DNA of 51,937 nt, taken from the NCBI GenBank assembly GCA_964019425.1, contig OZ025780.1, forward strand, positions 1,860,001 through 1,911,937, read 5' to 3'. Below are positions 2,921 to 30,638 of the stretch, piece after piece. The notes under the pieces were generated by a model that did no database searches, was not told the origin of the DNA, and saw only the letters and a program-made list of their open reading frames with translations. The first letter of the stretch is position 1. The number at the start of each line of letters is the position of its first letter. Source of the DNA: Flectonema sp. DT1601. Taxonomy: Eukaryota. The translations under genes and the position numbers were made by a program.

Positions 2921-3405
2921 CGTCCAGCCTGGGACTGTACAGGAACAAAAATCAATTGAAGGCCGATCTGTCGTTGAGAACGGTGTCCGACCTGGGACTG
3001 TACAGGAACGTAAAACTATTGCAAGTCGATCTGTCAGAGAGAACACCGTCCGACCTGGGACTGTACAGGAACGCAAATCAATTACAAATCGATCTGTCAG
3101 TGGGAACTCCGTCCGACCTGGGACTGTACAGGAACGCGAATCAATTACAAGTCGATCTGTCAGTGGGAACTCCGTCCAACCTGGGACTGTACAGGAACGC
3201 AAATCAATTACAAGTCGATCTGTCAGTGGGAACTCCGTCCAACCTGGGACTGTACAGGAACGCAAATCAATTACAAGTCGATCTGTCAGTGGGAACTCCG
3301 TCCGACCTGGGACTGTACAGGAACGCGAATCAATTACAAGTCGATCTGTCAGTGGGAACTCCGTCCAACCTGGGACTGTACAGGAACGCAAATCAATTAC
3401 AAGTC
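2921..3405 (+). repeat. 63-bp tandem repeat, ~8 units
   Basis: Unit ccgtcc(g/a)acctgggactgtacaggaacgc(a/g)aatcaattacaagtcgatctgtcagtgggaact; first units diverged; last unit cut at ...acaagtc. Confidence 0.95.
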
Positions 3406-3458
3406 AAACCCGCAAACCCGCAAACCCGCAAACCCGCAAACCCGCAAACCCGCAAACC
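3405..3458 (+). repeat. (AAACCCGC)n telomere-like tract, left flank of YR element 1
   Basis: About 6-7 perfect units ending ...cgcaaacc. Confidence 0.95.
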
Positions 3459-3698
3459 AACACTCAGACTGGGAACTGCACAAAAGGCAAGTGAAGTACG
3501 ATATACTCTTATAATATTTTCCTTTTCATTAATCAACATTAAATGTTGTTTAAGTATCATTTTTGTTCTCTTGTTATTACTTCAGATTTATCATTTTACT
3601 GTTCTCTTATCAATATTTCATTGTACTCATTTATTCAGGCTAGGAAGGGTCTTAACGCAAAGCGTTTTCGGAGGGACGATCGACACCGTGGAGACACG

Positions 3699-4580
3699 AT
3701 GGAAGTAAGGGTGGACCACGACACAGCGTTGGAGCGCCTGGGGGTGGTCGTCGCGTCGATGTGGGCGGACGAAACCTCGTCGAAGCGCAGAAACCTCTGG
3801 GGTCGGTTGGAACAATGGGCGTTGGCTCAGCGTCTGCCAATGTCTGCCGAAACAGCTGCGTTGTTCGTGCTGGCCACAGACGTGAGACCGCAGGGACAGC
3901 TGCAATACGCAAAGGCGCTGTCCGGGATCTACCGACACCTTGGTCTGGAAAACCAACCGCTCCTCAGCCTGGCAAGCGCGCTGAGGGCAAAAGGGGCGGC
4001 CGTTCCGCGTTCGCAAGCAGTTCCCATGTCAAAGGAGCAGCTGTTGGGTTGGGCGAGAAGTCTAACGGGACGTTTGAGGCTCGCGGCGCTGGTGTGTTGG
4101 AAGTCGGCTTCCCGGTGGGGAGAAGTGCACGTGCTGACGTCGGCGCATTTCGTTCTGGTGGAGGACGCGGAAGTGATCGTGGACTGGGGGACGTCGCCAA
4201 AACACCGGAGAGCAAACCCGTTCGTGCCGTCCCGTTGGGCGGTCTTGCGGGGGGATCTGGTCGGGGAGATCGCAAGCTTGTTTCGGGAGCTGGCTCCTTT
4301 CGATCGGCTGACGGATGTCACCACCGAGCGGTTGGCAGAGTTGTGGCGGGGGACTCCGGGAATGCGGGGTTTTACGGGCCACTCGATAAAACGAGGCGCC
4401 GCCGCGGCTTTGATGCGAGCGATGGCCGAGGGAAGGCTCACAGAAGGGTACCTGGTATCACGACTGTTGAAGCACGCCGAAGACGGAACCAACATCTCTG
4501 CAACAACGATCAGGTATTCGTCGGATTTCGTGGACACCGCCCGAGCGCTGCAAACGTGGAAGGTCACCATCCTGCTGTAG
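3699..4580 (+). CDS. Tyrosine recombinase (ORF track start 3543; likely ATG 3699, just after A1)
   Basis: Catalytic motifs KSASRWGE (R), GHSIKRGAA (HxxK/R-R), LLKH and TIRY (Tyr nucleophile). Confidence 0.88.
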   Translation: MEVRVDHDTALERLGVVVASMWADETSSKRRNLWGRLEQWALAQRLPMSAETAALFVLATDVRPQGQLQYAKALSGIYRHLGLENQPLLSLASALRAKGAAVPRSQAVPMSKEQLLGWARSLTGRLRLAALVCWKSASRWGEVHVLTSAHFVLVEDAEVIVDWGTSPKHRRANPFVPSRWAVLRGDLVGEIASLFRELAPFDRLTDVTTERLAELWRGTPGMRGFTGHSIKRGAAAALMRAMAEGRLTEGYLVSRLLKHAEDGTNISATTIRYSSDFVDTARALQTWKVTILL

Positions 4581-4612
4581 TTGCGGAGGACGTTGGCGAC
4601 GAAGGTGAGGCG

Positions 4613-6259
4613 ATGGAAGCGGTGGCGCGGCTGTCTCCGTGCACGACGCACAGCATCATCAGGAGGGGCAAGCGGACAAGACTGCCGTCGACGGCGGAGG
4701 AACGTTCGTCGCCTTTGCATGTGAGTGGCGTTGAGACGATGGATGTTGACGGACTCAGAAGTAGGATGACTGATGTTGCGAGGGAGAGGTTCGATCAGGT
4801 GTGGAACTTGACCTTTTACCCGGAGGTGGGGAAGTTGAGTCGCTCGTCGTCTACTTCATCTTTCGCTGGGAGGCACGCTGCGGAGTTGCTGAGGAACGGG
4901 ATCGCGCGAGCTGCGAGTGGACCGGGGAGAGCGGTGAACGTTCCATTCACCGTGGTGGAGGAGAAGCCGGAGGGACTGCGGCAGCGGTTCATCCTTTGGA
5001 CGAGGGATGCGAATGGTTGGGCCGAAGAAGCTTACGAAGCTCACGTCCCGCTGTTCCACATCTCAAAATATTTGGATCGGGTTCTGACCGAGGTTGGCTC
5101 GACACGGGATTTCAAGACAGGTTTTTATGCTATTGAAATCCCGGAGGAAGCGAGAGATCTCTTCCGATTCAAGACGACGGAGGGTGAATGGTTCGAGCTG
5201 TGCCGTTTACCGATGGGGCATGTCTGCGCGCCGGAGCTTATGCACTCTTTGGCAGCGGCGGCTGCGGGGGATCCAGCTTACGTGCGACGTCAGTGGGCTG
5301 CCAGGGATGTTGGCGTTGACGTGTTCATCGACAACATTCGGTACACGGGGACGGAAGGCGCGGTGTTGGCGGCGACGGTGAATCTCGATGCTGCGGCGGC
5401 GGACTTCCGTCTTACATGGAAGCCGTCTGACTCGAATACGGCGGTGAGCAAGTACACGTTTTTGGGTGTGGACTTTGACCACGAGGCGTCGTCGGTCATG
5501 CCGTCAGCGAAGATCCGGCGGAAGTTGGCGGCGGTGGACTTGTCGTCTGTGACGGCGAGTCAGTTGGAGTCGATGGCTGGGAGGCTGATGCATGCGTCGG
5601 CGATCGCTGCGGCGTCTCCGGGGAAATACTGGTATGCCTTGAAGTTCTTGCGGAGGTTGTCGAACGGCTTGAACCGCGGGGTGAGGCAGGTGCATGATGT
5701 GGTGTCGGTCCCTGTTTCGGTCGCGATGGAGTTGCGCAGTTGGTCGGCTGCCGCTGTGACGAGGAGGGTGGTTGCGCGGGAGCCGGCTGAAGATGAATTC
5801 ACGACGTTCGTGGATGCTTCATTGAGAGGTTGGGGCGGAGTCGTTGTGAACGACAGGACGGCCGAGGTTACTGTCTTGGGGGATGCGTGGGGTCCTTCGG
5901 AACAGTCGCTCCACATCAATGTTCTCGAGGGGATGGCGTTCAGGAACACGGTCTCGGGGATGCCGGTTTGCTGTGATGGTAAGCGGATGACCATCTGGAT
6001 CGACAACACGTCCGTCATTGGCGTAGCACGGAAGAAGATGTCAGTCCGATCGCAACGGCTGAACGATGCGGTCGTGCAGGCCATCGATGTGCTGGCAGAC
6101 AGAAAGGTTAGTTTCTGTATTGCCTATGTGAAGTCGGCGCTGAACCCAGCAGACTTGCCATCGAGGGTGGATCCAGGAGTTATAGGCTCATCGGAGCATC
6201 AGCGGGAAGTTGAACTTGCGGTGAGGGCCTTTCTGACTCGCGATGTGGTGGTGGTGTGA
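4613..6259 (+). CDS. Reverse transcriptase-RNase H of DIRS-group type (frame open from 3761; true start uncertain)
   Basis: RT motifs RDFKTGFY, RLPMG, FIDN (YxDD variant), YTFLG. RNase H motifs FVDASLRGWG, HINVLEG, WIDNTS, NPADLPSR. Confidence 0.9.
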   Translation: MEAVARLSPCTTHSIIRRGKRTRLPSTAEERSSPLHVSGVETMDVDGLRSRMTDVARERFDQVWNLTFYPEVGKLSRSSSTSSFAGRHAAELLRNGIARAASGPGRAVNVPFTVVEEKPEGLRQRFILWTRDANGWAEEAYEAHVPLFHISKYLDRVLTEVGSTRDFKTGFYAIEIPEEARDLFRFKTTEGEWFELCRLPMGHVCAPELMHSLAAAAAGDPAYVRRQWAARDVGVDVFIDNIRYTGTEGAVLAATVNLDAAAADFRLTWKPSDSNTAVSKYTFLGVDFDHEASSVMPSAKIRRKLAAVDLSSVTASQLESMAGRLMHASAIAAASPGKYWYALKFLRRLSNGLNRGVRQVHDVVSVPVSVAMELRSWSAAAVTRRVVAREPAEDEFTTFVDASLRGWGGVVVNDRTAEVTVLGDAWGPSEQSLHINVLEGMAFRNTVSGMPVCCDGKRMTIWIDNTSVIGVARKKMSVRSQRLNDAVVQAIDVLADRKVSFCIAYVKSALNPADLPSRVDPGVIGSSEHQREVELAVRAFLTRDVVVV

Positions 6260-7087
6260 CGGTGCCAACCTTTCCCCCGGCCGATTTTAGGCCGTGGTCG
6301 AACATGCAATTGTACAAGCATGCGGTGCCGTTTTCCCATTACCCCTTCGTGAATGAGTTGCTTCGTGTTAACTTGGTTCTCCTTTGTCTTTCTCATCATC
6401 ATTTTATTCAGCTGAGAAAATGGGAAAGCTAAGACGACATGAGGCTTATGATGCTAGTATCTTGTTATGTGGTTAATTCGTGTGATTGTTTTTATCAGAC
6501 TCTCCTTTATGACTTTTCCTTTTCAACAGTACTTCACTGAGAATGCCGAGCGGTTCCCAACACTCAGACTGGGAACTGCACAAAAGGCAAGTGAAGTACG
6601 ATATACTCTTATAATATTTTCCTTTTCATTAATCAACATTAAATGTTGTTTAAGTATCATTTTTGTTCTCTTGTTATTATTTCAGATTTATCATTTTACT
6701 GTTCTCTTATCAATATTTCATTGTACTCATTTATTCAGGCTAGGAAGGGTCTTAACGCAAAGCGTTTTCCCACCCGCCCTACCCCTGTGACGGTGCCAAC
6801 CTTTCCCCCGGCCGATTTTAGGCCGTGGTCGAACATGCAATTGTACAAGCATGCGGTGCCGTTTTCCCATTACCCCTTCGTGAATGAGTTGCTTCGTGTT
6901 AACTTGGTTCTCCTTTGTCTTTCTCATCATCATTTTATTCAGCTGAGAAAATGGGAAAGCTAAGACGACATGAGGCTTATGATGCTAGTATCTTGTTATG
7001 TGGTTAATTCGTGTGATTGTTTTTATCAGACTCTCCTTTATGACTTTTCCTTTTCAACAGTACTTCACTGAGAATGCCGAGCGGTTC

Positions 7088-7217
7088 CCCGCAAACCCGC
7101 AAACCCGCAAACCCGCAAACCCGCAAACCCGCAAACCCGCAAACCCGCAAACCCGCAAACCCGCAAACCCGCAAACCCGCAAACCCGCAAACCCGCAAAC
7201 CCGCAAACCCGCAAACC
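7088..7217 (+). repeat. (AAACCCGC)n tract, ~16 units, between YR elements
   Basis: Perfect units ending ...gcaaacc before the family-2 A repeat. Confidence 0.95.
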
Positions 7218-8369
7218 TTTCCTTGGGAACCTTGCAAATGGCAGTTTTAAATTACGTAATATCATCCTTTGTCTTTTCTGCTCTAGTGTGCAACGAAGTT
7301 TGAGTTCTCATCTTCGATCATTTTTCCTCAATTTAGACGAGTCCGATCATGGGCAAAAAGTGTTGCGCCGACCTGGCTGCAGACACTGTCTCTAGATAAG
7401 GCATTTTACATTTAACAATTGTTTCAGATGTGCAAATTCCGTGTGTTATAAAACAAGCTTGCATTATTACAAGTTATCCTTGGGAACGTGTCCCTCAATA
7501 TATCAGAAAATTATTCATCGTTTAACTTTTCCATTTTGTCATTCTTTACGCTTTATCACACGAACTTTGTCGGTTGCCGATGGGCCATGTGTGTGCGCCG
7601 GAGATCATGCACACGCTGGCCGCGGCGGCTGCCGGCGACCCTGCGTACGTCCTGCCGGAGTGGCGTGTGCGGGGTGTACGGGTTGATGTCTTCATAGACA
7701 ACATCCGGTATACAGGTGAGGCTGGTATGGTACTTGCAGCTACGGCGAACCTCGATGCGGCTGCAGGTGACTTTTGTTTAACCTGGAAACCAGCTGACAG
7801 CTTTACTGCGGAGACGAAGTACACTTTCTTGGGGGTGGACTTCGACCATCGGGAGTCGGAGGTGAAGGTATCGACGAAGATATGTCGGAAGCTGCAGGGT
7901 GTGGACATGGACAATGTGACGGCTGGGCAACTTGAGTCGATGGGTGGAAGGTTGATGCACGCTTCGGCGGTGGCCGGGGAGACACCGGGAAAATACTGGT
8001 TTGCATTGAAGTTCCTCCGGCGCTTGGCGAACAATCTGAATGCCGGGAGGAGGTTGGTCGGGGACAGAGTCCATGTTCCGGTTTCTATTTCGACTGAGTT
8101 GCGGGAGTGGGCGGCTGGTGCGACGGCTTCGAGACGGATGCTCGCTCCGTTTGATGGGGCGGAGCAGAAGTTCTCCATCTTCATCGATGCCTCGAAGATG
8201 GGATGGGGAGGAGTCGTTGTGAACGACGTGACGGCCGAGGTAGTGGTGATGGGGGACTCCTGGGATGCGGAACAGTGCATGCTGCACATTAACATCCTGG
8301 AGGGTCTAGCATTCAGCAAGGCGATGCAGCAGATGTCGCCGGAGCTGGATGGTTGCACGATAGCCATCT
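7218..8369 (+). mobile_element. YR retrotransposon family 2, internally deleted and 3'-truncated copy (near-identical to 26923-28074)
   Basis: A repeat joined directly to the RT motif ELCRLPMG. Homology stops inside RNase H at ...gccatct 8369. Confidence 0.88.
7561..8369 (+). pseudogene. Partial RT-RNase H
   Basis: PMGHVCAPE, FIDNI, YTFLG, FIDASKMGWG and HINILEG present. The ORF tail beyond 8369 is unrelated low-complexity sequence. Confidence 0.85.
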
Positions 8370-8695
8370 ATAACTTTGTTTTATATACCTTTCTTTATTT
8401 GTTTTGTATACCTTTCTTTATTTGTTTTGTGTACCTTTCTTTGCTTTGTTTTGGATACCTTTCTTTATTTGTTTCCGCGGGAGGGAAGGCGCACGCTGCC
8501 GACCGATCCCCCCGCTCCAATGTTGTTCTCGTTGATGTTGTGGATGTGATGGTCCAGTCTGCTGTCTTCCTTTTTTTTTTTCCCCTTCTCTTTTCTCTCA
8601 CTCTCTCGCGGTGGCAAGTGCTCTGGTCTTTTGAGAGGCTGGGAAAAAGGAAAACCAGTTTTGCTGATTTTCACCCTTTTTTTTTGTTTTTACTG

Positions 8696-8778
8696 CGAGA
8701 GAGACGGAACGAGAGATACAGAGAGAGAGAGAGAGAGAGTGACAATGCAAAGAAAACAAAACTGACCTTTTACGTATT

Positions 8779-8812
<34 letters not shown>

Positions 8813-9380
8813 AAAAAAACAATTTCACCCTGGTTTTGTTTGTGCTGCTCCTCGATCATAGGGATACTCTTGCGGCAGTTGTCGAGTATCCCGTAAAAAC
8901 TACCACAACAAAAACAACAAAAACATTTACCAACTCGATTCTCACTTCCTGTTCCTTGGTGAGTTTTAGCAAAAGCTGACCAACTCGACTCACGCAGCAG
9001 CTGCAGTTCCTCGCCGAGACGGAACCAGCCTCAATGATCCGAGTTGAGCGCCCACTCAGTTGGTCATCGGAGTGTAGTTATCAGCGGATTTCCTGGTTTC
9101 TCGCACAGAGAGCCAGGTTTCCCAACATAGCAACGCTTGTGGCAAAACTTGTCGTGGGAGGCTACTCGGGATTGGAGGTTGGCAGGTAAATGGGGGAAGC
9201 GAATGAAGAGAGGAGGAGACGCACGAGAGAGAATGGCAATATGTATGCGAGTGAGCCAGCTGCTGTGCTGCTGTGATTTGATTGGTATTTTTGCTAAGCA
9301 GTGTATTTCTTGCTCTGTGAACTGTTTTTGATGTTCAGGACGTGTTCATATTACTGAGGAAGGAGCCACCATCTGAGATC

Positions 9381-9412
<32 letters not shown>

Positions 9413-9603
9413 GGTGGTGTGCGGTTAAATCTCTAATTTTGGTAAATGAAATTCAATCTTTTGCAGCAATATACTTATCGTCTCTCTCTCTGTGACATTT
9501 TCGATTTAGAAAAAGTAAAATCCTGTGATCAGTACTGCTTTCATTCGTCACCCATGTGGGTTGTTGTTGTCTTGTCTTTTTTCTTCTTTTTTTTCGTGCC
9601 TGC

Positions 9604-9636
<33 letters not shown>

Positions 9637-9640
9637 GATG
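8696..9640. repeat. Microsatellite-rich segment: (GA)n, (GAT)n/(GGT)n, (GTCGTT)n
   Basis: Directly visible at ~8720, ~8780, ~9380-9419 and ~9604-9635. Confidence 0.85.
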
Positions 9641-12600: not shown

Positions 12601-12692
12601 GGGAAACTTTAACGCCGGGGGGGGCTCACGTCTACAGGCGAAGTGAACCGCGGGAACCCCTTCTATCGCAAGTCAGCATGGAGCTGCAAGTT

Positions 12693-13555
12693 CGTCCAGC
12701 CTGGGACTGTACAGGAACAAAAATCAATTGAAGGCCGATCTGTCGTTGAGAACGGTGTCCGACCTGGGACTGTACAGGAACGTAAAACTATTGCAAGTCG
12801 ATCTGTCAGAGAGAACACCGTCCGACCTGGGACTGTACAGGAACGCAAATCAATTACAAATCGATCTGTCAGTGGGAACTCCGTCCGACCTGGGACTGTA
12901 CAGGAACGCGAATCAATTACAAGTCGATCTGTCAGTGGGAACTCCGTCCAACCTGGGACTGTACAGGAACGCAAATCAATTACAAGTCGATCTGTCAGTG
13001 GGAACTCCGTCCAACCTGGGACTGTACAGGAACGCAAATCAATTACAAGTCGATCTGTCAGTGGGAACTCCGTCCGACCTGGGACTGTACAGGAACGCGA
13101 ATCAATTACAAGTCGATCTGTCAGTGGGAACTCCGTCCAACCTGGGACTGTACAGGAACGCAAATCAATTACAAGTCGATCTGTCAGTGGGAACTCCGTC
13201 CAACCTGGGACTGTACAGGAACGCAAATCAATTACAAGTCGATCTGTCAGTGGGAACTCCGTCCGACCTGGGACTGTACAGGAACGCGAATCAATTACAA
13301 GTCGATCTGTCAGTGGGAACTCCGTCCAACCTGGGACTGTACAGGAACGCAAATCAATTACAAGTCGATCTGTCAGTGGGAACTCCGTCCGACCTGGGAC
13401 TGTACAGGAACGCAAATCAATTACAAGTCGATCTGTCAGTGGGAACTCCGTCCAACCTGGGACTGTACAGGAACGCAAATCAATTACAAGTCGATCTGTC
13501 AGTGGGAACTCCGTCCGACCTGGGACTGTACAGGAACGCAAATCAATTACAAGTC
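12693..13555 (+). repeat. 63-bp tandem repeat, ~14 units
   Basis: Same unit and same truncation point as 2921-3405; six more units. Confidence 0.95.
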
Positions 13556-13588
13556 AAACCCGCAAACCCGCAAACCCGCAAACCCGCA
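13555..13588 (+). repeat. (AAACCCGC)n tract, ~4 units, left flank of Helitron 1
   Basis: Ends ...cccgca immediately before ctag. Confidence 0.93.
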
Positions 13589-13789
13589 CTAGAGATACCC
13601 CTTCCAGGCTCGCGTTGCTCGCACACAACTTTTTTTTTTTAAGCTTTCTGAACAAACATTATTTTTACAACCAAGTCACGTCTGTTTTTATTCCCTGGCT
13701 AATCGCTCGCGTTAAGTTAAGTCCAATTTTGTACCCTTTTCCTTGCTACTTTCTTCTTACTAATTTTTCTGGTTGAAAAACACAAAAAA

Positions 13790-13859
13790 TGTGCCTGGGA
13801 ATTGAACCCTTGCCATGGCTACCGAAGAGATTTAAGGTATCCACTCGGCTGTGCAGCCC
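13790..13859 (-). pseudogene. tRNA-like (Pol III A/B box) remnant inside the Helitron
   Basis: Minus strand agccgagtgg...ggttcaattcc followed by a T-run. No complete cloverleaf; homologous to 40249-40331. Confidence 0.5.
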
Positions 13860-14032
13860 TGGGATTTTCTTTTTTTTTTTTATTTATTTATTTGTGTGTT
13901 CTTAGCCTCTTTATGGAAATCCTTCCATTTTCCCTTCCCCCCAGTCTTAACGTAGGAGAGTCTACCAGGTGCTTACCCTTCGGGCGCGGGATTTGAACTA
14001 ATTGCGTGTACGGGCGCGATGGGTTATTGCAG

Positions 14033-14096
14033 TGGCAGGGGGTCGAACCAGCGATCACCCAGCCCCAGGGCGAAGGTTATACCACTACCCCTGGGA
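14033..14096 (-). pseudogene. Second tRNA-like remnant
   Basis: Minus strand ggggtagtggtataacc...ggttcgaccccc: A/B-box spacing is tRNA-like but the stems are imperfect. Confidence 0.35.
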
Positions 14097-14178
14097 TATC
14101 GCAACTTTTTATTATTATTACTTTTCTGCAATTTTTATTTATAAATAAGTTTTCGAAAAGGTGGGAAAAAAAAATAAA

Positions 14179-19000: not shown

Positions 19001-19924
19001 GAGGCGAAACGGAGTGAAGCAGACTTACCTGCTCAAGACACGAGAGTTTACACGGATGGGTCGATAAGACACAAGTCTAAGACCTACATGACGAATGCAG
19101 CTGCTGCTGTGGTTATAGTAGACAAAGGCAAGACGTGTCTACTTGGATACAAAATACCGGTGGCGGGTTCCTCCTACAGGACTGAACAGATCGCTGTAAA
19201 ATTGGCGATGGAGAATCTTGTTCAAGCAGCGAAGGAGGAACGAGAATGTCCAACAGCAACGACGCACCTGTTGACTGATTCGATGTCAGTCATGCAGGCA
19301 TTGGAACAAGGACCATACAAACAAAGGTCCCCAATGAATAAAGACATCTGGAAGTTAGCTATGAAGCTAGAGAGGAAGGGTGTTCAAATTAACGTACAGT
19401 ATGTGCCAGCGCACAGAAATGTACGATACAATGAAGTAGCAGACCAGCTTGCGAAGTATGCAGCAGGCCTGAAGGATGATCCACCTTATAAGGATGTAAT
19501 TATTAAACAACTACCCGCTCAACTTGATATGGGAACGATGATGACCTTCCACAAGCGGAGAAAACGGGAGAACTGGTTAGGGCCAGGAGAGGTAAGGCAC
19601 CCTCCATACATTGATGAGCTCACCAGACCGGAAGAAGTGATCATGTCACGCTTTAGAGTGGGACACTGCAGATCCTTGAAACTCAAGGGACAAAATGAGA
19701 AATGCATTTTCTGCAAAGATGCAAGGGCAACACCACATCATGTGGCCTTATTATGTGAACACTGGTGCGTGGAATTCTTAAGAGACAAGTACATCGATCC
19801 TATGATAAACGAAGAAGGAGAAGAACCATGTTCTCTAGAAGACTGTTACTTACCGAATAACCAACGAAGGATGTTAAACTTTGTCACTGCCTTGGACGAA
19901 CTAGCAGTACTAACAGGAAGGTAA
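16004..19924 (+). CDS. LINE ORF2: AP endonuclease, reverse transcriptase, RNase H, C-terminal CCHC
   Basis: APE: LQETWL, GDINGH, SDHQP. RT: APGPD, YRPITL, DLQKAFD, GVPQGSVLGP, FADD, YLG. RNase H: YTDGS, TDS, VPAH..NEVAD. C-terminus: CIFC..HVALLC. Confidence 0.95.
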   Translation: MIVIWSNNIRSVLKPENYFKLNWALKEEKPEIILLQETWLTDDKPFSVDGYKTYRRDSTTKMGHRGLITLVRNDLKNAITKLNDISFDQTEILSVELQSNPPLIIHNVYHPPEIKATTWKIKSELGTLIAGDINGHHPTWSNGNKNTTGISFYNWSLEAAMKVINNPQQHTRPLSLTSPDIVALDNTMEAEVKIMRGWGSDHQPLKIIIEEIKTQEQHQKTYNWKWKWHCADWEYYRRILQAAAPKLEHIKTVQKLGARINNEILKAAGRAIPGYNKEVGGAFTVRDPELEELMTETDPDKTTTDAIAEGIRKVKQNIIECDMSGKDYRWAFRKVKQLEGRTIDHAISNITHKGRELTDSQEIANAFTETYANQFPKDGEMETISERPDENDEEFGMSELVRQLTKTKEKKAPGPDKIWNSMIKQLPEAFLKQLLRLFNLSWQRSAVPRCWKSGMVIPILKPDKDKKQVLSYRPITLTSSIAKLFERMIVERMHHLLNKTMNPRQAAYKRGRDATENLCIVTDRLLSARDRGKEAILITFDLQKAFDAVQPKTLMDKMMTAGLPTRYLRWVQNYLTGRKITTRVNGTKGNFQNIQVGVPQGSVLGPQLFSIFINDLIEKLEKFEPTVFADDVGIVIASDTINRLEDRVNEAVRIFEEWALDSQIKINKNPGKTEYIHVKPNRMQDKSPVVVYSEEHTFKYVVATAEQIRNLVKDDGTTTVEKKEDYAVTHLYVVPPHRIKTKLPNKPTVIKTLKMNAQRFPQLKKVHNRGEIDKMLETVGPGLHGFALATGRKVHKTKVVRYLGVHYDENLTFESQMGKMMIAASRGLGLLTRLTRIGCRKRTLISILVTVVLARILYGVESFAWVLTSNFLQQLELIINRTVRLVTGCLRSTELTRLYEEADTPRLKEHIQYKMCRTYERFKLSPHLPAHELTKTKRMEENPPKTIWGWTVWNYYVSGIPGLDINRSIISQEVNPEHYTLPPWKETNAMKFTYPGDKDEAKRSEADLPAQDTRVYTDGSIRHKSKTYMTNAAAAVVIVDKGKTCLLGYKIPVAGSSYRTEQIAVKLAMENLVQAAKEERECPTATTHLLTDSMSVMQALEQGPYKQRSPMNKDIWKLAMKLERKGVQINVQYVPAHRNVRYNEVADQLAKYAAGLKDDPPYKDVIIKQLPAQLDMGTMMTFHKRRKRENWLGPGEVRHPPYIDELTRPEEVIMSRFRVGHCRSLKLKGQNEKCIFCKDARATPHHVALLCEHWCVEFLRDKYIDPMINEEGEEPCSLEDCYLPNNQRRMLNFVTALDELAVLTGR

Positions 19925-20893
19925 TCTTATAATCGACAAATGTCAAGATCAAGACCGCAGCCTACAAGACTAGGAAGTACTGATGGCAATTTAGCAACAC
20001 ATCCGAAGACGTCCAAGTGGACAATTTACTCTGTAGTATTAGTTTTAAGTTATCAAAACAAAGAAAGGAGATACGAAGCCTACGGGATCCCCACCCCCAA
20101 CCCCCAAAACAAAGAAAGTAAGAAAGAAAGAAAGAAAAAGAACAACCGCGCCTAACAGCGCAATCAGCATCACAGACTCACGGGTCGTGGTGCACACAAA
20201 AAAAAAAAAAAAAAAAAAAAGGTGGGAAGTAACGGACTGGGAGCTTTTGGCTCCTGCCCTATTCCCGATGTAAACTTTCTTTTTTTTTTTTTTTTTTTTT
20301 TTTAACAGGCCCAAAGGGCGACAATGAAAGATGCTGACCAAGGAATAATATTCAAATGAATTTTCGTTTCAAAGAAACGAACAGGATTAAGGGAGGCAGA
20401 AAAAAAAAAAAAAATAATATGAAGAGGAAATAATCAAACATGAAAAAAAAAAATGAAAAAAAAATAAATAAACGTTATATATAAGCAATTTCTTTTTTTT
20501 TTCGCAATTTTTTATTTATTTATTACTTTTCTGTCCCAACGGGACGACAAATGAAAAATGTCCTCCCTTAGCTGAAAATGCACACTGCACCCTGTTTTAT
20601 CATGTCCTTTGTTTTTGTTTTTCTGAAAGATATCTGTAGTTGTTGTTATATTAATATGCTAGCACGAAAACGGCGGCTAGGTTTATGATGATTGGATATG
20701 TGGCTTAGGTTATCTGTTTGTTACATTTGGAAGTATTTTACAACAGGTTTATCGAACCTGTATCTGCAATGTGTGCGACCCTGGGATGGGAATATAGGAA
20801 TTTAGTTATATTAATAAGGTTATTGTTCATTATTTCCAATAAAATAGAAATGTGGGAAGAACTATGGGATGGCGGAACGCAGCCCCCCCCCCC

Positions 20894-20970
20894 AACCCCC
20901 CCCAAGGGGGGGGAGCCACTAATAAAGGCCAACCTCCTGAAAAAGAATCAAGAAAAAACAAAAATGCCCT
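20894..20970 (+). repeat. ~75-bp direct repeat, left copy, beginning with a C8-AA-G8 palindrome
   Basis: Recurs at 24295-24370. Confidence 0.92.
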
Positions 20971-21008
20971 ACACATAATTCGCATTCTGCCCTACAAAAA
21001 ACAATCCT

Positions 21009-23936
21009 ATGGAGAAACTCCAATTTCCGAACCTCGATTATCCAACAATGGAGCCCCACATGGAAAACAAACAAGAGAAAGATACTCTTAGTCAAAAGAC
21101 GAATGATAACGATGACACAGCACTGTTATACGAGATGTTACAGAAATTTGAAGAGGATGATATCTCTACAACAGCTAAAGCCGCAGATCCATTGGATTTG
21201 AGATCTTCGAATGAAAATACTACTCATAAGGAAGTCATTCAAGAACCAAAGAAAGTCATTCAAGAACCGAAGGAAGTCATTCAAGAACCAAAGGAAGTCA
21301 TTCAAGATCCAAAGGAAGTCATTCAAGATCCAAAGGAAGTCATTCAAGATCCAAAGAAAGTCATTCAAGATCCAAAGGAAGTCATTCAAGAACCAAAGGA
21401 AGTCACTCAAGATCCAAAGGAAGTCACTCAAGATCCAAAGAAAGTCATTCAAGATCCAAAGGAAGTCATTCAAGATCCAAAGGAAGTCACTCAAGATCCA
21501 AAGGAAGTCACTCAAGATCCAAAGAAAGTCATTCAAGATCCAAAGGAAGTCATTCAAGATCCAAAGGAAGTCATTCAAAATCCAGAGATAGATACACACC
21601 TAGATCCAAAAATAGGTCAGCAAGATGTGGATTTGGACGATAAGGAAGCAATAGTTGTTGCTAACAAGGCTTCTAAACCCAATACTCACTTCGACATCAC
21701 TGATTACATAACTTCTGAAGATCAAAAGTCAAATGATTTTGTAAGTGGAACCACAAAGCTCACTAAGTTTCCCAATCATATCTTGAACACCAATCAGAAT
21801 ACTAACTTATGTCATATGGAATATGCTACACCAAATACCGATGTACATATGGAATCACCAATGACCACTATTCTAACTGGTCCACTTTATAATACGGATA
21901 CACAATTTAATTACGAAAATACAACACTTATAATTGCAACACCGCAGATTATACCAACCATCCCAAACTTTCATAACCTATATCACAGCTCATCTGGGTG
22001 TCAAATCATGGCGGTATCACCTCCGAGAATATACAAAGTAAATACAATTGCTGCCATCTCACCCCCACAAGTCTATCACAACGGGGACAGCATTGTTGCC
22101 ATCTCACCGCCAACTATCCATGATACTAAGAGTCCAACAGATGTTACTTCACCAACTCGGATGGATATTGATATTGACACGGTGATTGCCGTCAATAACA
22201 GAAGTCTATATGATATTGACATCATCCCACCACCACATGTGGATACTCTTATAAGTACCAAGAAAAAGAGTAACGACTCAATTCATAAAACTTGCCTTAC
22301 CGATGTCGATAACAATAGCTACAACGAGATATCACCACCACAAACGGATGTACATATGTTGATCAATAACAATGATCTCAACGTAATTGAGCCTATTGCA
22401 CCACCACATACGGGTGTTCATACGGTAATTAACAACAACAGTCTCGAGACATTCGGGTATATTTCACCACCGCAGACTGGTATTCATATGCCTATAGTTA
22501 TCGACAACAACAGTATCAACGCAAACGAACTTGCTTCACCACCACAAACTAATGTTCATATGGAGGTCAGAAACAATAGTCTCATTGCGACTGAGGCTAT
22601 ATCACCACCGTGTTTAGAAACACCTGAACATCGACATGTGTTTGAAACACCGGTAAAACAAAAGTCGGGAGGCAAAATCAAAACTCCGACAACCAACAAG
22701 ATTGTCCCACAAGAACCACTAACTTGTTGGAATGGACACAATCGGGAGCTTATTTATGATTTAGCAATGAATAGGCAACCTAACAAGATTGTTACAACAT
22801 ACACTGCACCATCGTTAAAAGTTACAACTCCGAAAACAGCAGCACGAAATAACACTGTTGTCATAGACACAGAAGATAGTATGAACCCCGTAACTTCAAT
22901 GCCGGAAAGTTTAAGTGATGCCCTTGAACCTTGTTCAAAACGTAACAAAAAGTCCAATATACTGTCTCATAAACATGCTATGAAGCAATCCAAAAAGAAA
23001 GCTTTCAATAATGGATCTCACGAGTCAATTATCCCTAAAACTAAAGTCATTACGCAATCACATACGCAGATTAAGGATAAAACATCGGAACCTATCAATG
23101 AAGAATCTAGTAAGATACTTCCCCAACTTAAAGATGAAACCGGAAGTAAGAAAGATGAGACATCGTCGCATGTTGAACTAGAAAAGGCAACAGAAGTTAA
23201 TACAATAGTTGAGAACTCAATGACCGACGTGCCAACGACAACATCCTCGTCAGAACCATCCTACAAAGATACAACGCATATCAAGAGGAAATGTAAATAT
23301 TGCTTCAAGACTAAAAAATCAATTATTGATCATGTCCACATATGCGCAATATTCAGAGCCTCAAAGGACTTTCCATATTACATGGATCATGATAATACAA
23401 CGTATGAAGTTAACAACAGTGATGGCTCCAACAAGATCACAATGGTCATCAAGGAGAAGAAGAAATTAAACATGCGGTCTATCAAAAGAGGTACAAAACT
23501 AGTAACACAAATTCTTGAGAAAGAGGATAGTACACTAACTACACCAAAAAGAGATACCCGCAAAAGATTAAATTCTGAAAGTCCGATTCCAATAATCGAA
23601 TTTAATGGATACATGGACAAGGACAAGAGAAAAAAGTTAGAGAATAAGAACGGATCTAAAAGTAAACGCAAGATCAAAGTTGAGGTTAATAAGATGCTAG
23701 TCGCTTCAACAAAAAAGAAGGAGAAGTCGAAATATACAAAGAGATTAAATTCTGAAAGTCCTATGCAGCCGCTACTAAGAAAAGATGTACGAAAGAAACG
23801 AGCCAAACAAGAAGATATCAACACACCTAAAAGTGAAGATAAAGAGAACGTTACGAACATCTTAGATACTCCTTCGACTCCTGCTTTACATAATTTTGAA
23901 GATGTATCAGAGTATGCATCAGAGCTTGATAATTAA
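21009..23936 (+). CDS. Hypothetical 975-aa protein with KEVIQDP heptad repeats, SPPxT repeats, a C2HC finger and a Lys-rich C-terminus
   Basis: 2.9-kb uninterrupted ATG-started ORF in AT-rich DNA; CKYC-x9-HVHIC motif. Confidence 0.7.
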   Translation: MEKLQFPNLDYPTMEPHMENKQEKDTLSQKTNDNDDTALLYEMLQKFEEDDISTTAKAADPLDLRSSNENTTHKEVIQEPKKVIQEPKEVIQEPKEVIQDPKEVIQDPKEVIQDPKKVIQDPKEVIQEPKEVTQDPKEVTQDPKKVIQDPKEVIQDPKEVTQDPKEVTQDPKKVIQDPKEVIQDPKEVIQNPEIDTHLDPKIGQQDVDLDDKEAIVVANKASKPNTHFDITDYITSEDQKSNDFVSGTTKLTKFPNHILNTNQNTNLCHMEYATPNTDVHMESPMTTILTGPLYNTDTQFNYENTTLIIATPQIIPTIPNFHNLYHSSSGCQIMAVSPPRIYKVNTIAAISPPQVYHNGDSIVAISPPTIHDTKSPTDVTSPTRMDIDIDTVIAVNNRSLYDIDIIPPPHVDTLISTKKKSNDSIHKTCLTDVDNNSYNEISPPQTDVHMLINNNDLNVIEPIAPPHTGVHTVINNNSLETFGYISPPQTGIHMPIVIDNNSINANELASPPQTNVHMEVRNNSLIATEAISPPCLETPEHRHVFETPVKQKSGGKIKTPTTNKIVPQEPLTCWNGHNRELIYDLAMNRQPNKIVTTYTAPSLKVTTPKTAARNNTVVIDTEDSMNPVTSMPESLSDALEPCSKRNKKSNILSHKHAMKQSKKKAFNNGSHESIIPKTKVITQSHTQIKDKTSEPINEESSKILPQLKDETGSKKDETSSHVELEKATEVNTIVENSMTDVPTTTSSSEPSYKDTTHIKRKCKYCFKTKKSIIDHVHICAIFRASKDFPYYMDHDNTTYEVNNSDGSNKITMVIKEKKKLNMRSIKRGTKLVTQILEKEDSTLTTPKRDTRKRLNSESPIPIIEFNGYMDKDKRKKLENKNGSKSKRKIKVEVNKMLVASTKKKEKSKYTKRLNSESPMQPLLRKDVRKKRAKQEDINTPKSEDKENVTNILDTPSTPALHNFEDVSEYASELDN
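21228..21585 (+). repeat. 21-bp coding tandem repeat, ~17 units
   Basis: Unit aaggaagtcattcaagatcca. Confidence 0.93.
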
Positions 23937-24294
23937 TCATCTTATACTTTCTACATTTATTGTAGAAGAGTGCTCCACTAGTAGTGCGCTACGAACTAGT
24001 AATAACAAGAAGAATGTTTTTTTTTTTATAAACATTATAACAAAGTAACTACATCCTAGTCTTGCTAACTAAGATGCTTCAGTCACAACAGATGATTGAC
24101 TTACTTCTACACCATACTGATGATGAGAGAATAGAGGTAAGAGGTATATGGATTACTCTCGAAACCTAATAGTTACTTTAAAAGGCTAAGTTAAGCATCA
24201 CACCTAGTCACTGTATCTCAGAACTAATGTTAAATTATCGTTATGTTTTTTATGATACAAAACATTTGTATTTTACGTACAAAATCAAACAGTT

Positions 24295-24370
24295 AACCCC
24301 CCCAAGGGGGGGGAGCCACTAATAAAGGCCAACCTCCTGAAAAAGAATCAAGAAAAAACAAAAATGCCCT
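24295..24370 (+). repeat. ~75-bp direct repeat, right copy
   Basis: Matches 20894-20970 with one fewer C. Confidence 0.92.
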
Positions 24371-24948
24371 CGCCCAGGGTCGAACTGGACGGTTTACAGC
24401 CATTTTGGGTTTTGTAAAGAATGGTTAGTTCTGAAACTATTTGTGTAGGAAAGACCCTTTACCCAAAAAGAAATGAAATCAAAGATTGCTTTTTCACAGC
24501 TTGGCACCTAAAATCCAAAACTCATTAAGAAGGAAAAAATTATTTCAAAAAGAAAATTTTTGCTAACTAAATTGGCAGCCATACACCAAATTTCAAAACC
24601 ACTTACTAACAGAATTTCTTTCTCATCACTTTTTATATTTTAAGAAAATGGTTAACAGGAATTTATGAAGACTTTTGGATAGATCAACTATGTGTTCCCA
24701 TCTTTTTTAGGAGATCTGTAGAAAAAAATAAATCTTTCAGAAAATATTATAAAGGAAAGATTTTTTCTGAAGAATTCTTTTTTAACTACCTACTAAATTG
24801 GCAACCATACACTTAAATTTCAAAACCATCACATTTTATACTTTAAGAAAATGGTTACCCATCTTTTTTAGACCTGCTCAGGCACAAAAATCCAGCATTT
24901 TTCCTTAGGCAAAAATAAGTCTTACTTACTTCCTACTGAAGGAAATTG

Positions 24949-25828
24949 GCAGCTTAAATTTGTTTGCAGGAAAAAAGTAAGCAGCTAAAATTTGCTTGCG
25001 GGAAGAAAATAAGCAGCTAAAATTTGCTTGCGGGAAGAAAATAAGCAGCTGAGATTTGCTTGCGGGAAGAGAATCAGCAGCTAAAATTTGCTTGCGGGAA
25101 GAAAATAAGCAGCTAAAATTTGCTTGCGGGAAGAAAATTAGCAGCTAAAATTTGCTTGCAGGAAGAAAATTAGCAGCTAAAATTTGCTTGCGGGAAGAAA
25201 ATAAGCAGCTGAGATTTGCTTGCGGGAAGAGAATCAGCAGCTAAAATTTGCTTGCGGGAAGAAAATAAGCAGCTAAAATTTGCTTGCGGGAAGAAAATAA
25301 GCAGCTAAAATTTGCTTGCGGGAAGAAAATAAGCAGCTGAGATTTGCTTGCGGGAAGAAAATAAGCAGCCAAAATTTGCTTGCGGGAAGAAAATAAGCAG
25401 CTAAAATTTGCTTGCGGGAAGAAAATTAGCAGCTAAAATTTGCTTGCGGGAAGAAAATAAGCAGCTAAAATTTGCTTGCGGGAAGAAAATAAGCAGCTGA
25501 GATTTGCTTGCGGGAAGAGAATCAGCAGCTAAAATTTGCTTGCGGGAAGAAAATTAGCAGCTAAAATTTGCTTGCGGGAAGAAAATTAGCAGCTAAAATT
25601 TGCTTGCGGGAAGAAAATCAGCAGCTAAAATTTGCTTGCAGGAAGAAAATTAGCAGCTAAAATTTGCTTGCGGGAAGAAAATAAGCAGCTAAAATTTGCT
25701 TGCGGGAAGAAAATTAGCAGCTAAAATTTGCCTGCAAGAAAAAAATAAGCAGCTAAAATTTGCTTGCGGGAAGAGAATCAGCAGCTAAAATTTGCTTGCA
25801 AGAAGAAAATTAGCAGCCAAAATTTGCT
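24949..25828 (+). repeat. 32-bp minisatellite, ~27 units
   Basis: Unit gcagctaaaatttgcttgcgggaagaaaataa, head-to-tail with point variants. Confidence 0.95.
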
Positions 25829-26910
25829 CAGGGGTGCTACATAAGCATTGATTGCAGAAAGGTGGCAAAAATGAAAGGAATTATTTATTAAAACCCAAAT
25901 TGTCTAAACCATAACAGAAAGACAGCTTGGCACCAAAACTCTAAAACCTATTCTCCTCAGGGATTTGTGAAGCCTTTTCGAGATCGATAGGCCAAGGGAT
26001 AACCATAAAAAAGGTGTAACCATGAATTCTTGGAGGTGAGTGGCACAAAAAGCAGTAAAAAAAAAAAAAAAAAAATCCCGTGACAAAGGCAAATAACTGC
26101 AAAAGCAGCAATTCTCTTTCCGCAAACGCCCCCCCGTGGGTCATCAGGTCATTTGGTAGTGCCAACCTGCAACAGGTTAACATGCAACACTCTACATTTC
26201 TTCCCGTAATGCGTGACACCATTCAACACCTTACGTAGCACTTAGCACCAGGCCTGCTTGCGGGAAGAAACAGAAGCCTAAGCCATTCTCAGTACGGAAG
26301 TAGCTAGGCCAGGCCTTACATAGCACTTCTGAGCAACCTAATATTATTCCTGTAATCCGTGACACTATTACGTAGCACTTAGCACCAGGCTTGCTAGCAG
26401 GAAGAAACAGAAGCCCCATTCCCAGTACCGAAGTAGCTAGGCCTGACCAGCTTACAGTGCTGCGTAAGTTTTGACTGGCAAACAACTGCAAAACTTTTTT
26501 CTCCACCCAGAGATTTGTGAAGACTTTTCGGGGCCGATAGATCGAGAGATAACCATAAAAAAAAGATGTACTCATGTTTTTTTGGAGGTGAGTGGCGCAA
26601 AAAGTGGTAAAAAAAAAAAAAAAAATTCCGTGACAAAGGCAAATAACAGCAATTTTCTTTCTGCAAACGCCCGCCGGATCATCAGACTGTCATTTGGTAG
26701 CGCCGACTTGCCACAGGTCAATATGCAACGCTACTTTTCTTTCCGTAATGCGTGGCACCAGTCAACACTTATGTTGCCAGACCTTCTTGCGGGAATGCAA
26801 AGAAGAATTAGTGTGTAATTAGGTGAGGCCTGGCCTGGGTACCTGGCCCAGGACTTGGTGGATTTCCTCAGAACCCAAAATATCCCCAATGCTGACAATT
26901 ATATAGGAGA

Positions 26911-26922
26911 AACCCGCAAACC
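26911..26922 (+). repeat. Residual AAACCCGC tract between Helitron 1 and the YR family-2 element
   Basis: aacccgcaaacc. Confidence 0.8.
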
Positions 26923-29242
26923 TTTCCTTGGGAACCTTGCAAATGGCAGTTTTAAATTACGTAATATCATCCTTTGTCTTTTCTGCTCTAGTGTGCAACG
27001 AAGTTTGAGTTCTCATCTTCGATCATTTTTCCTCAATTTAGACGAGTCCGATCATGGGCAAAAAGTGTTGCGCCGACCTGGCTGCAGACACTGTCTCTAG
27101 ATAAGGCATTTTACATTTAACAATTGTTTCAGATGTGCAAATTCCGTGTGTTATAAAACAAGCTTGCATTATTACAAGTTATCCTTGGGAACGTGTCCCT
27201 CAATATATCAGAAAATTATTCATCGTTTAACTTTTCCATTTTGTCATTCTTTACGCTTTATCACACGAACTTTGTCGGTTGCCGATGGGCCATGTGTGTG
27301 CGCCGGAGATCATGCACACGCTGGCCGCGGCGGCTGCCGGCGACCCTGCGTACGTCCTGCCGGAGTGGCGTGTGCGGGGTGTACGGGTTGATGTCTTCAT
27401 AGACAACATCCGGTATACAGGTGAGGCTGGTATGGTACTTGCAGCTACGGCGAACCTCGATGCGGCTGCAGGTGACTTTTGTTTAACCTGGAAACCAGCT
27501 GACAGCTTTACTGCGGAGACGAAGTACACTTTCTTGGGGGTGGACTTCGACCATCGGGGGTCGGAGGTGAAGGTATCGACGAAGATATGTCGGAAGCTGC
27601 AGGGTGTGGACATGGACAATGTGACGGCTGGGCAACTTGAGTCGATGGGTGGAAGGTTGATGCACGCTTCGGCGGTGGCCGGGGAGACACCGGGAAAATA
27701 CTGGTTTGCATTGAAGTTCCTCCGGCGCTTGGCGAACAATCTGAATGCCGGGAGGAGGTTGGTCGGGGACAGAGTCCATGTTCCGGTTTCTATTTCGACT
27801 GAGTTGCGGGAGTGGGCGGCTGGTGCGACGGCTTCGAGACGGATGCTCGCTCCGTTTGATGGGGCGGAGCAGAAGTTCTCCATCTTCATCGATGCCTCGA
27901 AGATGGGATGGGGAGGAGTCGTTGTGAACGACGTGACGGCCGAGGTAGTGGTGATGGGGGACTCCTGGGATGCGGAACAGTGCATGCTGCACATTAACAT
28001 CCTGGAGGGTCTAGCATTCAGCAAGACGATGCAGCAGATGTCGCCGGAGCTGGATGGTTGCACGATAGCCATCTGGATTGACAACACCTCGGTGGTAGGG
28101 GTTGCCAGGAAGGGTATGTCGGTTCGGTCGCAAGAGCTGAACGGCGCAGTCATCAGCGCTTTGCTGGAGTTGCAGAGGAGGGCGATCACGTTCTCGGTGC
28201 AGTATGTACGATCACAACTGAATCCAGCTGACCTACCTTCACGGGTCGATCCGACACAAATCAAAACACGAAAGCACAGGGAAGAGGTCACACTGGCGGT
28301 TAGGGCTTTCTTCACTCGCGATGTGGAGGTGGCGCGTGACGGCGCGCGCCCGGCCGAGCCTCACCACGAGGACACGATCAGGCGGCGCCACGCTACCCCG
28401 TTGTGAATGTTTGGAAATCTTGCTCTGTTAGTACTTGTGGCTTAACCCTTTCTTTCGCTCTGTCTACAGGAAAATTAGTTTAACCAATGGTACAATTCAC
28501 TTTGTACAATGTTCTTGCTTTATTCATTTCTATCCCTTGTTTCTGCTTTATTTCATTTCACCCCAGTACAATTAACAACGTAAATGCCGCACGGTTCCCT
28601 TTCCTTGGGAACCTTGCAAATGGCAGTTTTAAATTACGTAATATCATCCTTTGTCTTTTCTGCTCTAGTGTGCAACGAAGTTTGAGTTCTCATCTTCGAT
28701 CATTTTTCCTCAATTTAGACGAGTCCGATCATGGGCAAAAAGTGTTGCGCCGACCTGGCTGCAGACACTGTCTCTAGATAAGGCATTTTACATTTAACAA
28801 TTGTTTCAGATGTGCAAATTCCGTGTGTTATAAAACAAGCTTGCATTATTACAAGTTATCCTTGGGAACGTGTCCCTCAATATATCAGAAAATTATTCAT
28901 CGTTTAACTTTTCCATTTTGTCATTCTTTACGCTTTATCACAGGGTTTTTTCATACTTGTACATTTAAGTTTGAAATCCCACCCACCCACCCCCTGTGAC
29001 GGCGCGCGCCCGGCCGAGCCTCACCACGAGGACACGATCAGGCGGCGCCACGCTACCCCGTTGTGAATGTTTGGAAATCTTGCTCTGTTAGTACTTGTGG
29101 CTTAACCCTTTCTTTCGCTCTGTCTACAGGAAAATTAGTTTAACCAATGGTACAATTCACTTTGTACAATGTTCTTGCTTTATTCATTTCTATCCCTTGT
29201 TTCTGCTTTATTTCATTTCACCCCAGTACAATTAACAACGTA
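26923..29242 (+). mobile_element. YR retrotransposon family 2, internally deleted: A1 26923-27265, B1 28336-28599, A2 28600-~28977, B2 28996-29242 (cut by Helitron 2)
   Basis: Same split-repeat layout as family 1. YR and the RT N-terminus are missing. Confidence 0.9.
27266..28406 (+). pseudogene. C-terminal RT plus complete RNase H of family 2
   Basis: FIDNI, FIDASKMGWG, WIDNTS and NPADLPSR; clearly homologous to the family-1 protein. Confidence 0.88.
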
Positions 29243-30632: not shown

Positions 30633-30638
30633 ATTATT

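What the first reader, a model, noticed from the sequence alone, without database searches (positions are those of the whole stretch)
3405..29242. One 8-bp telomere-like repeat serves as the landing pad for two unrelated transposon classes
Seen: YR family 1 (3459), YR family 2 (7218/26923, one event duplicated), an older A repeat (~2324) and Helitron 1 (13589-26910) all abut AAACCCGC units. For family 1 and Helitron 1, deleting the element restores a perfect repeat. Known: Leishmania TATE YR elements target telomeric repeats. Inference: a community of repeat-targeting elements, including a Helitron, exploits and remodels this repeat.
Basis: partly seen in the sequence, partly recalled or inferred. 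Interest (0 to 1): 0.85.

Follow-up and report, generated by a model that had tools for sequence, protein, structure and literature searches.

The report
Two transposon classes share telomere-like target
In a diplonemid-like protist, a recombinase-type retroelement and a rolling-circle Helitron are each joined to the same 8-base repeat at their own fixed base, four bases apart, which likely means that two unrelated transposons both target what is probably the telomere repeat.

Summary
Two VIPER/TATE-like tyrosine-recombinase (YR) retroelement families join (AAACCCGC)n at AAA-CC-CGC through a 2-bp CC core. A Helitron with TC...CTAG ends sits in the G-rich strand at GGGTT|TGCGGG. No genome was held, so I read junctions on other contigs from predicted proteins that run through the stop-free repeat. 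Of 38 informative tract edges, 23 fit a Helitron-type end at exactly the window's base, and 6 are YR starts at the YR base; 0 of 26 bacterial tracts fit. A second, related genome shows the same Helitron phase. Against: the window's other Helitron 3' end lies 15 bp outside the repeat at a look-alike site, the sample was found repeat-first, and a plain T|T preference plus tolerance is not excluded. That the repeat is the telomere is probable but not shown; its polarity at the window end is odd. Each half has a precedent (Leishmania TATE; Paramecium telomeric Helitrons, 2026). New here: an HLE1-like Helitron on the opposite strand at T|T with single-base precision, sharing one 8-mer with a YR element.

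The parts
2294..2322 (+). Degenerate AAACCCGC units before the old A repeat (copied at 12066-12094)
   Evidence: 24 of 29 bases match the repeat
2323..3404 (+). 5' remnant of an older YR2-like element: A repeat, then possible gag-like remains ending in a 63-bp array that is cut off by the repeat tract (copied at 12095-13554)
   Evidence: A homology 2295-2480; array; gag-like reading is inference from position and ORFs
3405..3458 (+). Repeat tract, 54 bp, left flank of YR1
3459..7089 (+). YR1, split-direct-repeat YR retroelement (A1 3457-3669, B1 6255-6558, A2 6557-6769, B2 6786-7089); lacks the 5' coding part
   Evidence: A1/A2 212 of 213, B1/B2 304 of 304; residues 1-77 of the full relative P0006 missing
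3699..4580 (+). Tyrosine recombinase ORF, 293 aa, with R139-K168-H228-R232-H259-Y273
   Evidence: Atlas 0.98 to Phage_integrase clusters; alignment with 6 metagenome relatives; no Pfam hit
4613..6259 (+). RT/RNase H coding part; the frame is open from 3656 and overlaps the YR ORF
   Evidence: 75 homologs, best named ones Diplonema papillatum at about 50%; Atlas 0.98 Euglenozoa clusters
6530..6600 (+). YR1 B1|A2 junction (predicted circle junction): long imperfect hairpin with the CC core at the inner end of the 5' arm
   Evidence: z -4.9, 0 of 200 shuffles; CC invariant
7088..7217 (+). Repeat tract, 130 bp, between YR1 and YR2
7218..8369 (+). YR2 copy 1, internally deleted and 3'-truncated
13555..13588 (+). 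Repeat tract, 34 bp, at the 3' (CTAG) end of Helitron 1
13589..26910 (-). Helitron 1: non-autonomous, TC...CTAG, inserted at GGGTT|TGCGGG; non-coding arms collinear with Helitron 2; carries nested inserts
14149..20220 (+). LINE nested in Helitron 1 (ORF1; APE-RT-RNase H ORF2 15983-19924; poly-A); not in the repeat
   Evidence: poly-A
26911..26922 (+). Repeat tract, 12 bp, between the Helitron 1 5' end and YR2
26923..29242 (+). YR2 copy 2, internally deleted (A1, RT/RH part, B1 28336-28599, A2 28598-28942, B2 28996-29242 lacking its last 15 bp)
   Evidence: junction hairpin z -3.7
29243..40180 (-). Helitron 2: CTAG end at 29243 outside the repeat (site CGTA|AA); RepHel coding region 30831-39151 with one frameshift and one stop; 5' end lost
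   Evidence: 3' end 96% to Helitron 1; Helitron_like_N and PIF1; full relative P0219, 2,784 aa
40181..45233 (-). Helitron 3: deleted derivative, both termini lost, joined directly to the long array
   Evidence: 34146-38692 = 40695-45241, 99.9%
45234..51937 (+). Near-perfect (CCCGCAAA)n array of at least 6.7 kb, running to the window end
   Evidence: 838 copies, 99%; one variant near 51428

Best explanation
Two unrelated transposon classes are joined to the same 8-bp repeat at their own fixed bases, four bases apart, and each likely integrates there by reading the repeat, which is probably this protist's telomere sequence. Shown: YR elements join at AAA-CC-CGC with a 2-bp CC core shared by the element's B|A junction and the target; Helitron ends join the G-rich strand at GGGTT|TGCGGG. 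Inferred for YR: the RT rebuilds the B|A junction on a cDNA, the junction folds as a hairpin, and the recombinase exchanges at the CC core, likely one strand only, because the 7- or 12-nt loop does not match the target and always ends up on the left junction. Inferred for the Helitron: RepHel peels off its top strand and joins it into the G-rich strand where that strand is single-stranded, recognising TT|TRCG, possibly through its N-terminal zinc fingers. Repeated insertion builds arrays of elements spaced by repeat tracts of variable length; deletions and duplications then rearrange them.
For: Window junctions. Predicted proteins that read through the repeat (scored): 47 have 28 or more repeat residues, 9 give no flank, and of 38 informative edges 23 fit CTAG or CAAG at CCCGCA| (null 1.0% per edge), 5 more fit that base with another motif, 6 are YR starts at AAACC|, 1 is a Helitron-type end by hand, 3 are unassigned. 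On the C strand all 20 CTAG/CAAG fits are at one base and 0 at the other seven, including the other T|T site. Three reading frames together fix one family's first bases as CTAG and a variant's as CAAG. Five proteins carry the YR right junction GGTTC|CCCGC (null 0.14%). Bacterial tracts: 0 of 26. One Helitron-like 5' end runs into the repeat in 20 of 20 listed cluster members on 14 contig lengths, with different tract lengths and neighbours. The one off-repeat site matches 6 bases of a variant unit. The pure 8-mer has depth 5,000 against 2 for Helitron sequence in run X1. RepHel has HUH and Y2 motifs and 3-4 N-terminal zinc-finger-like motifs.
Against: 1 of the 2 Helitron 3' ends in the window is outside the repeat. 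Junction proteins were found repeat-first, so they show what borders tracts, not where most elements lie; for the window's genome only 3 in-repeat Helitron ends are known, while the RepHel cluster has 19 members whose flanks I could not see. Against a T|T-only rule (two such sites per unit) five families choosing one site is only about 1 in 16. The 28-residue cut-off was chosen after seeing the data; of the 13 shorter rows dropped, 1 fits CAAG and 0 fit CTAG. Second-genome ends are called Helitron ends from their CTAG signature, phase and shared contigs with RepHel, not from DNA contiguity. The long array runs C-rich towards the window's 3' end, the wrong polarity for a right-hand telomere, and no paper with this motif as a telomere was found.
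Confidence: 0.72

Rival explanations
1. Only the YR elements are sequence-specific. The Helitron inserts at T|T (or short TT|TRCG) sites anywhere, and copies survive in gene-free repeat regions.
For: Helitron 2 is off-repeat. T|T exists only on the G strand of the unit, which alone would fix orientation. TTTRCG also occurs some 50 times outside tracts in the window. Sampling was repeat-first.
Against: 20 versus 0 at the two T|T sites by locus; 20 of 20 listed cluster members of one 5' end run into the repeat; the tract held about 1% of local T|T sites.
Confidence: 0.17
2. The repeats travel with the elements or the junctions were multiplied by segmental duplication and tandem amplification of a few founders, so there were few true insertions.
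For: The window holds a 100% identical 3.4-kb duplication. P0267, P0275 and the window's Helitron 2 all place a Helitron 3' end next to a YR2 right end.
Against: Tract lengths vary from one unit (P0517) to about 500 bp; the same end meets different neighbours; five unrelated end sequences share the phase; Helitron 1 has both ends in register.
Confidence: 0.08
3. The arrangement is an assembly artefact of a repetitive contig end.
For: Exact duplication 1-3405/9773-13177; two window ORFs are listed on a 27,740-bp contig, shorter than the window.
Against: The same junction types recur on many contigs and in a second set of contigs with a RepHel only 34% identical; run X1 holds Helitron 2 sequence with 0 differences over 695 bp.
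Confidence: 0.03

Closest known systems
TATE / VIPER-like YR retroelements of kinetoplastids (PMC6681497, PMC12278014)
   Same: A1-ORFs-B1-A2-B2 split direct repeats, overlapping YR and RT/RH ORFs, no target duplication; TATE inserts at GGG^TTA, and the cut here can be written GGG^TTT.
   Different: 8-bp repeat with a CG; diplonemid-like host; window copies lack the gag-like ORF; a B|A junction hairpin is not mentioned in the text of PMC6681497 (0 hits for 'hairpin'). TATE versus VIPER placement not tested.
Paramecium telomeric Helitrons (PMC13085455)
   Same: Helitrons flanked on both sides by telomere-type repeats of variable length, one orientation, satellite-laden non-autonomous derivatives.
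   Different: [quoted passage not shown] This one is HLE1-like, ends TC...CTAG without a significant hairpin, and inserts into the G-rich strand at one resolved base.
Canonical HLE1 Helitrons, e.g. Helraiser (PDB 7LCC; PMC11417382)
   Same: 5' TC, 3' CTAG, no terminal inverted repeats, RepHel match E 1.7e-138.
   Different: Inserts at T|T, not A|T; no 3' hairpin; OTU domain downstream of RepHel; fixed site in a repeat.
DIRS-1 (PMC7192593)
   Same: YR retroelement whose circle junction shares a short core with the target; single-stranded cDNA intermediates were observed there.
   Different: DIRS-1 has inverted LTRs with an internal complementary region and a trinucleotide core; here split direct repeats and a dinucleotide core.

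Membership tests
VIPER-like YR retroelements (VIPER/TATE) | Split direct repeats A1...B1-A2-B2 | tested here: met
VIPER-like YR retroelements (VIPER/TATE) | Overlapping YR and RT/RH ORFs, YR first | tested here: met
VIPER-like YR retroelements (VIPER/TATE) | Gag-like ORF1 | tested here: inconclusive
   Absent from the window copies, which are internally deleted; full copies not seen as DNA
VIPER-like YR retroelements (VIPER/TATE) | No target-site duplication | tested here: inconclusive
   2-bp shared core and perfect restoration, but an 8-bp duplication cannot be seen in an 8-bp repeat
TATE | RT/RH groups with TATE rather than VIPER | not tested
   No named TATE or VIPER sequence was among the hits
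TATE | Insertion at a fixed position in the telomeric repeat | tested here: inconclusive
   Fixed position met; telomeric identity of the repeat not shown
HLE1 (canonical Helitron) | 5' TC and 3' CTRR | tested here: met
HLE1 (canonical Helitron) | RepHel with HUH/Y2 and PIF1 helicase, HLE1-type | tested here: met
   no DUF6570 or endonuclease hit; by best hits, no tree with HLE2 built
HLE1 (canonical Helitron) | Short 3' hairpin | tested here: not met
   z 0.14, 103 of 200 shuffles fold as well
HLE1 (canonical Helitron) | Insertion between A and T | tested here: not met
   T|T at Helitron 1; T|T inferred for Helitron 2 from the B1 twin
HLE2 (Helitron2/Helentron) | Short terminal inverted repeats | tested here: not met
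   Longest inverted match 8 bp, reached by 56 of 500 random pairs
HLE2 (Helitron2/Helentron) | Insertion between T and T | tested here: met
Paramecium telomeric Helitron clade | CCAA end, C-rich-strand insertion | tested here: not met
   CTAG end, G-rich strand
Telomeric repeat | Caps chromosome ends with the G-rich strand running to the 3' end; made by telomerase | not testable with these tools
   No genome held; abundance and homogeneity fit, polarity at the window end does not

The most novel reading that the evidence does not exclude
A canonical-type (HLE1-like) Helitron lineage in diplonemids has become a truly sequence-specific integrase that reads the telomeric G strand to the base, independently of the Paramecium clade; a YR retroelement integrates half a repeat away from a folded single-stranded junction by one strand exchange; together they build the chromosome ends as alternating element-repeat arrays.
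Probability: 0.35. Interest if true: 0.88.

Novelty: new variant of a known kind. Interest (0 to 1): 0.74.

Why it matters
Helitrons are described as nearly unspecific (A|T or T|T). The one repeat-targeting case my searches found is a divergent Paramecium clade on the C strand. A close relative of Helraiser, which has a solved structure and a working assay (assay recalled, structure), that lands at one base of an 8-mer would make it directly testable how a rolling-circle transposase acquires a target. The YR junctions give a concrete, testable model for how VIPER/TATE recombinases choose sites. It also points to a candidate telomere motif for diplonemids, for which I found none in print.

Tried and rejected
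Whole genome: none held. Helitron 3'-end pattern in metagenome contigs: 0 hits; repeat pattern in viral contigs: 0. Run X1 was too shallow to show element flanks: no cover of YR2 or the Helitron 1 5' end, and no contig over the Helitron 3' terminus. 80 metagenome loci of YR relatives: 8 held a YR match and 2 of the first 12 showed split repeats, but contigs end at the element and no telomere-like flank was seen; uninformative. Single-sequence fold of the YR: pLDDT 36, unusable; PDB sequence search gave nothing. Rejected: that proteins ending in the repeat mark contig ends; a variant unit gives a stop codon in that frame. Rejected: a 3' hairpin or terminal inverted repeats in the Helitron. The junction hairpin was seen in one metagenome relative (L001, z -2.6) but not at the comparable place in another (L004, z 0.07). 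Earlier findings: three look-ups returned nothing.
Full report
Setting. No genome is held. The RT/RNase H protein at 4613-6259 has 75 homologs; the best named ones are Diplonema papillatum models at about 50% identity, and the nearest Atlas clusters are euglenozoan. The host is therefore diplonemid-like (inference). The 8-mer forms five tracts, all C-rich on the plus strand: 3405-3458, 7088-7217, 13555-13588, 26911-26922 and 45234-51937.

YR elements. YR1 has the order A1-ORFs-B1-A2-B2 (A 212 of 213, B 304 of 304 identical), the layout given for VIPER and TATE (PMC6681497). Its first ORF has no Pfam or PDB hit but scores 0.98 to integrase clusters and keeps R139, K168, H228, H259 and Y273 invariant in a 7-sequence alignment, with R232 in 6 of 7. 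The internal B1|A2 junction reads GGTTC-CC-then A; the left genomic junction reads AAA-CC-then A; the right reads GGTTC-CC-CGCAAA. That is a conservative exchange in a 2-bp CC core. YR2, whose RT/RH is about 63% identical, has the same core and left junction. On the G strand one of the three equivalent placements is GGG^TTT, the position given for TATE (GGG^TTA). Both B|A junctions fold as long imperfect hairpins (z -4.9 and -3.7). The core lies at the inner end of the 5' arm; the loop (12 or 7 nt) does not match the target and goes whole to the left junction. I infer a folded junction and a single strand exchange. Single-stranded cDNA has been observed for DIRS-1 (PMC7192593, passages); the parallel with folded-strand recombination in integrons and CTX phage is recalled, not from a call. 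A duplex model with inverted binding sites is not excluded.

Helitrons. 13589-26910 begins TC and ends CTAG on the minus strand, sits at GGGTT|TGCGGG, and its removal leaves 46 of 46 perfect bases. It has no RepHel; its arms are collinear with those of Helitron 2, and it carries a LINE. Helitron 2 shares the 3' end (96%) and encodes a RepHel with a full-length relative of 2,784 aa. RepHel matches Helraiser at E 1.7e-138; the best 120 of 228 hits are mostly plant and animal Helitron-type proteins or unnamed; no DUF6570 or endonuclease was found. By the definitions in PMC11417382 (passages) it meets the HLE1 termini but fails the 3' hairpin and the A|T site, and lacks HLE2 inverted repeats. It works like an HLE1 but should not be filed as a canonical one. 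Against the finding: the 3' end of Helitron 2 lies in the YR2 B2 repeat, 15 bp short of the element end. The site (CGTA|AA) equals six bases of a variant unit seen elsewhere. P0275 shows this Helitron subfamily behind a complete YR2 right junction and a tract, so a later deletion or a near-cognate insertion could both explain it; neither is shown.

Test beyond the window. The repeat has no stop codon, so gene calls run through tracts into the flanks. I searched with the C-strand peptide (91 hits) and the G-strand peptide (best 150 of 1,138) and expanded 20 clusters. One search scanned all stored proteins other than the window's own five: 60 had a run of 14 or more repeat residues. I kept the 47 with 28 or more (cut-off set after seeing the data, because short tracts occur in bacteria); of the 13 dropped, 1 fits CAAG and none CTAG. 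Nine give no flank at the relevant edge. Of 38 informative edges, 23 fit CTAG or CAAG directly after CCCGCA (simulated null 0.6% and 0.45%), 5 fit that base with another motif, 6 are YR A-repeat starts after AAACC (3 match window families, 3 carry a similar motif), 1 is the reverse read of a CTAG family with a one-base slip, and 3 are unassigned. On the C strand the 20 fits are all at one base, 0 at the other seven. Different reading frames of one family jointly fix its first four bases as CTAG, of a variant as CAAG, and mixed families are inconsistent. These collapse to five distinct end families among about 17 flank types: P about 7e-7 against random flanks, but only about 1 in 16 against a T|T-only rule. 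Five proteins carry the YR right junction (null 0.14%), confirming the junction predicted for YR2, which the window lacks. In 26 bacterial tracts the edges spread over all eight phases and none fits.

Which genomes. By shared contig lengths, P0266, P0267, P0275, P0371 and P0026 lie on contigs that also carry near-identical copies of the window's YR or RepHel proteins. A second set shares contigs with a RepHel only 34% identical: 6 of its 12 listed contig lengths also carry a junction protein. In that set one end, compatible with the Helitron 5' junction (null 10%, so weak alone), runs into the repeat in 15 of 15 listed members of an 18-member cluster and 5 of 5 of another, two of them by only 2-3 residues. 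This is the nearest I have to an element-first sample; whether off-repeat copies would have joined the cluster depends on rules I cannot see. For the window's own genome the tally is three in-repeat Helitron 3' ends and one outside.

Is it the telomere? For: a T3GCG3 unit, a 6.7-kb array with one variant, depth 5,000 against 2 in run X1, one polarity throughout, the TATE-like cut, and the same peptide in two D. papillatum models. Against: the array runs C-rich towards the window's 3' end, and ragged breakpoints inside ORFs occur mainly at the 5' edge of C-rich tracts (3405, 45234; P0026, P0261, P0278, P0280), the opposite of ordinary healing, though gene calling favours such cases. I put telomeric identity at about 0.65 (judgement).

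Literature. [quoted passage not shown] PMC6681497: first three of nine parts and passages. PMC12278014, PMC10161547, PMC11417382, PMC7192593: passages only; seven supplementary files of PMC10161547 were searched for the motif with no hit, and files not held as text may bear on the telomere question. Searches that found no report of this motif as a telomere, or of an HLE1 or euglenozoan repeat-targeting Helitron: (open-access library only). Independent origin from the Paramecium clade is inferred from termini, strand and best hits; no joint tree was built.

Verdict. Real, reproduced across contigs, and a new variant of two known kinds sharing one target. Targeting by the YR elements is well supported; by the Helitron likely; the molecular steps are inferred.

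Noticed in passing
window 3405, 13555, 45234; P0026, P0261, P0265, P0272, P0278, P0280: Ragged breakpoints inside other elements sit at the 5' edge of C-rich tracts, while 3' edges are mostly precise element ends; the long array runs C-rich to the window's 3' end. This is the reverse of normal telomere healing and is unexplained (fusion to telomere ends, directional deletion, or gene-calling bias).
   Followed up: partly
window 20897-24370: A 985-aa low-complexity ORF (20979-23936, 21-bp repeat, no Pfam hit) bracketed by a 74-bp exact direct repeat inside Helitron 1; an unclassified insert.
   Followed up: no
window 24938-25828: 32-bp satellite, 27.8 copies, inside Helitron 1; its unit contains TTGCGGG, part of the target repeat.
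   Followed up: no
window 13600-13625 (minus); second-genome family P0264/P0507/P0352: A GCGAGC motif lies shortly before the terminal CTAG in two unrelated Helitron ends and resembles the target's GCGGGT; a candidate binding site.
   Followed up: no
P0269, P0270, P0277: A recurrent element end ('REVSNHM' peptide) joins the repeat at or next to the Helitron base but has no CTAG; unidentified.
   Followed up: no
P0345, P0349: Two Diplonema papillatum gene models contain the repeat peptide, one at the truncated end of a SLACS-type RT, so the 8-mer may be shared across diplonemids.
   Followed up: partly
window 3761-8893: Two stored proteins match the window exactly but are listed on a 27,740-bp contig, shorter than the window: another haplotig or assembly version.
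   Followed up: no
L001 4340-4410: A distant metagenome YR relative with split direct repeats also folds its B|A junction as a hairpin (z -2.6).
   Followed up: partly
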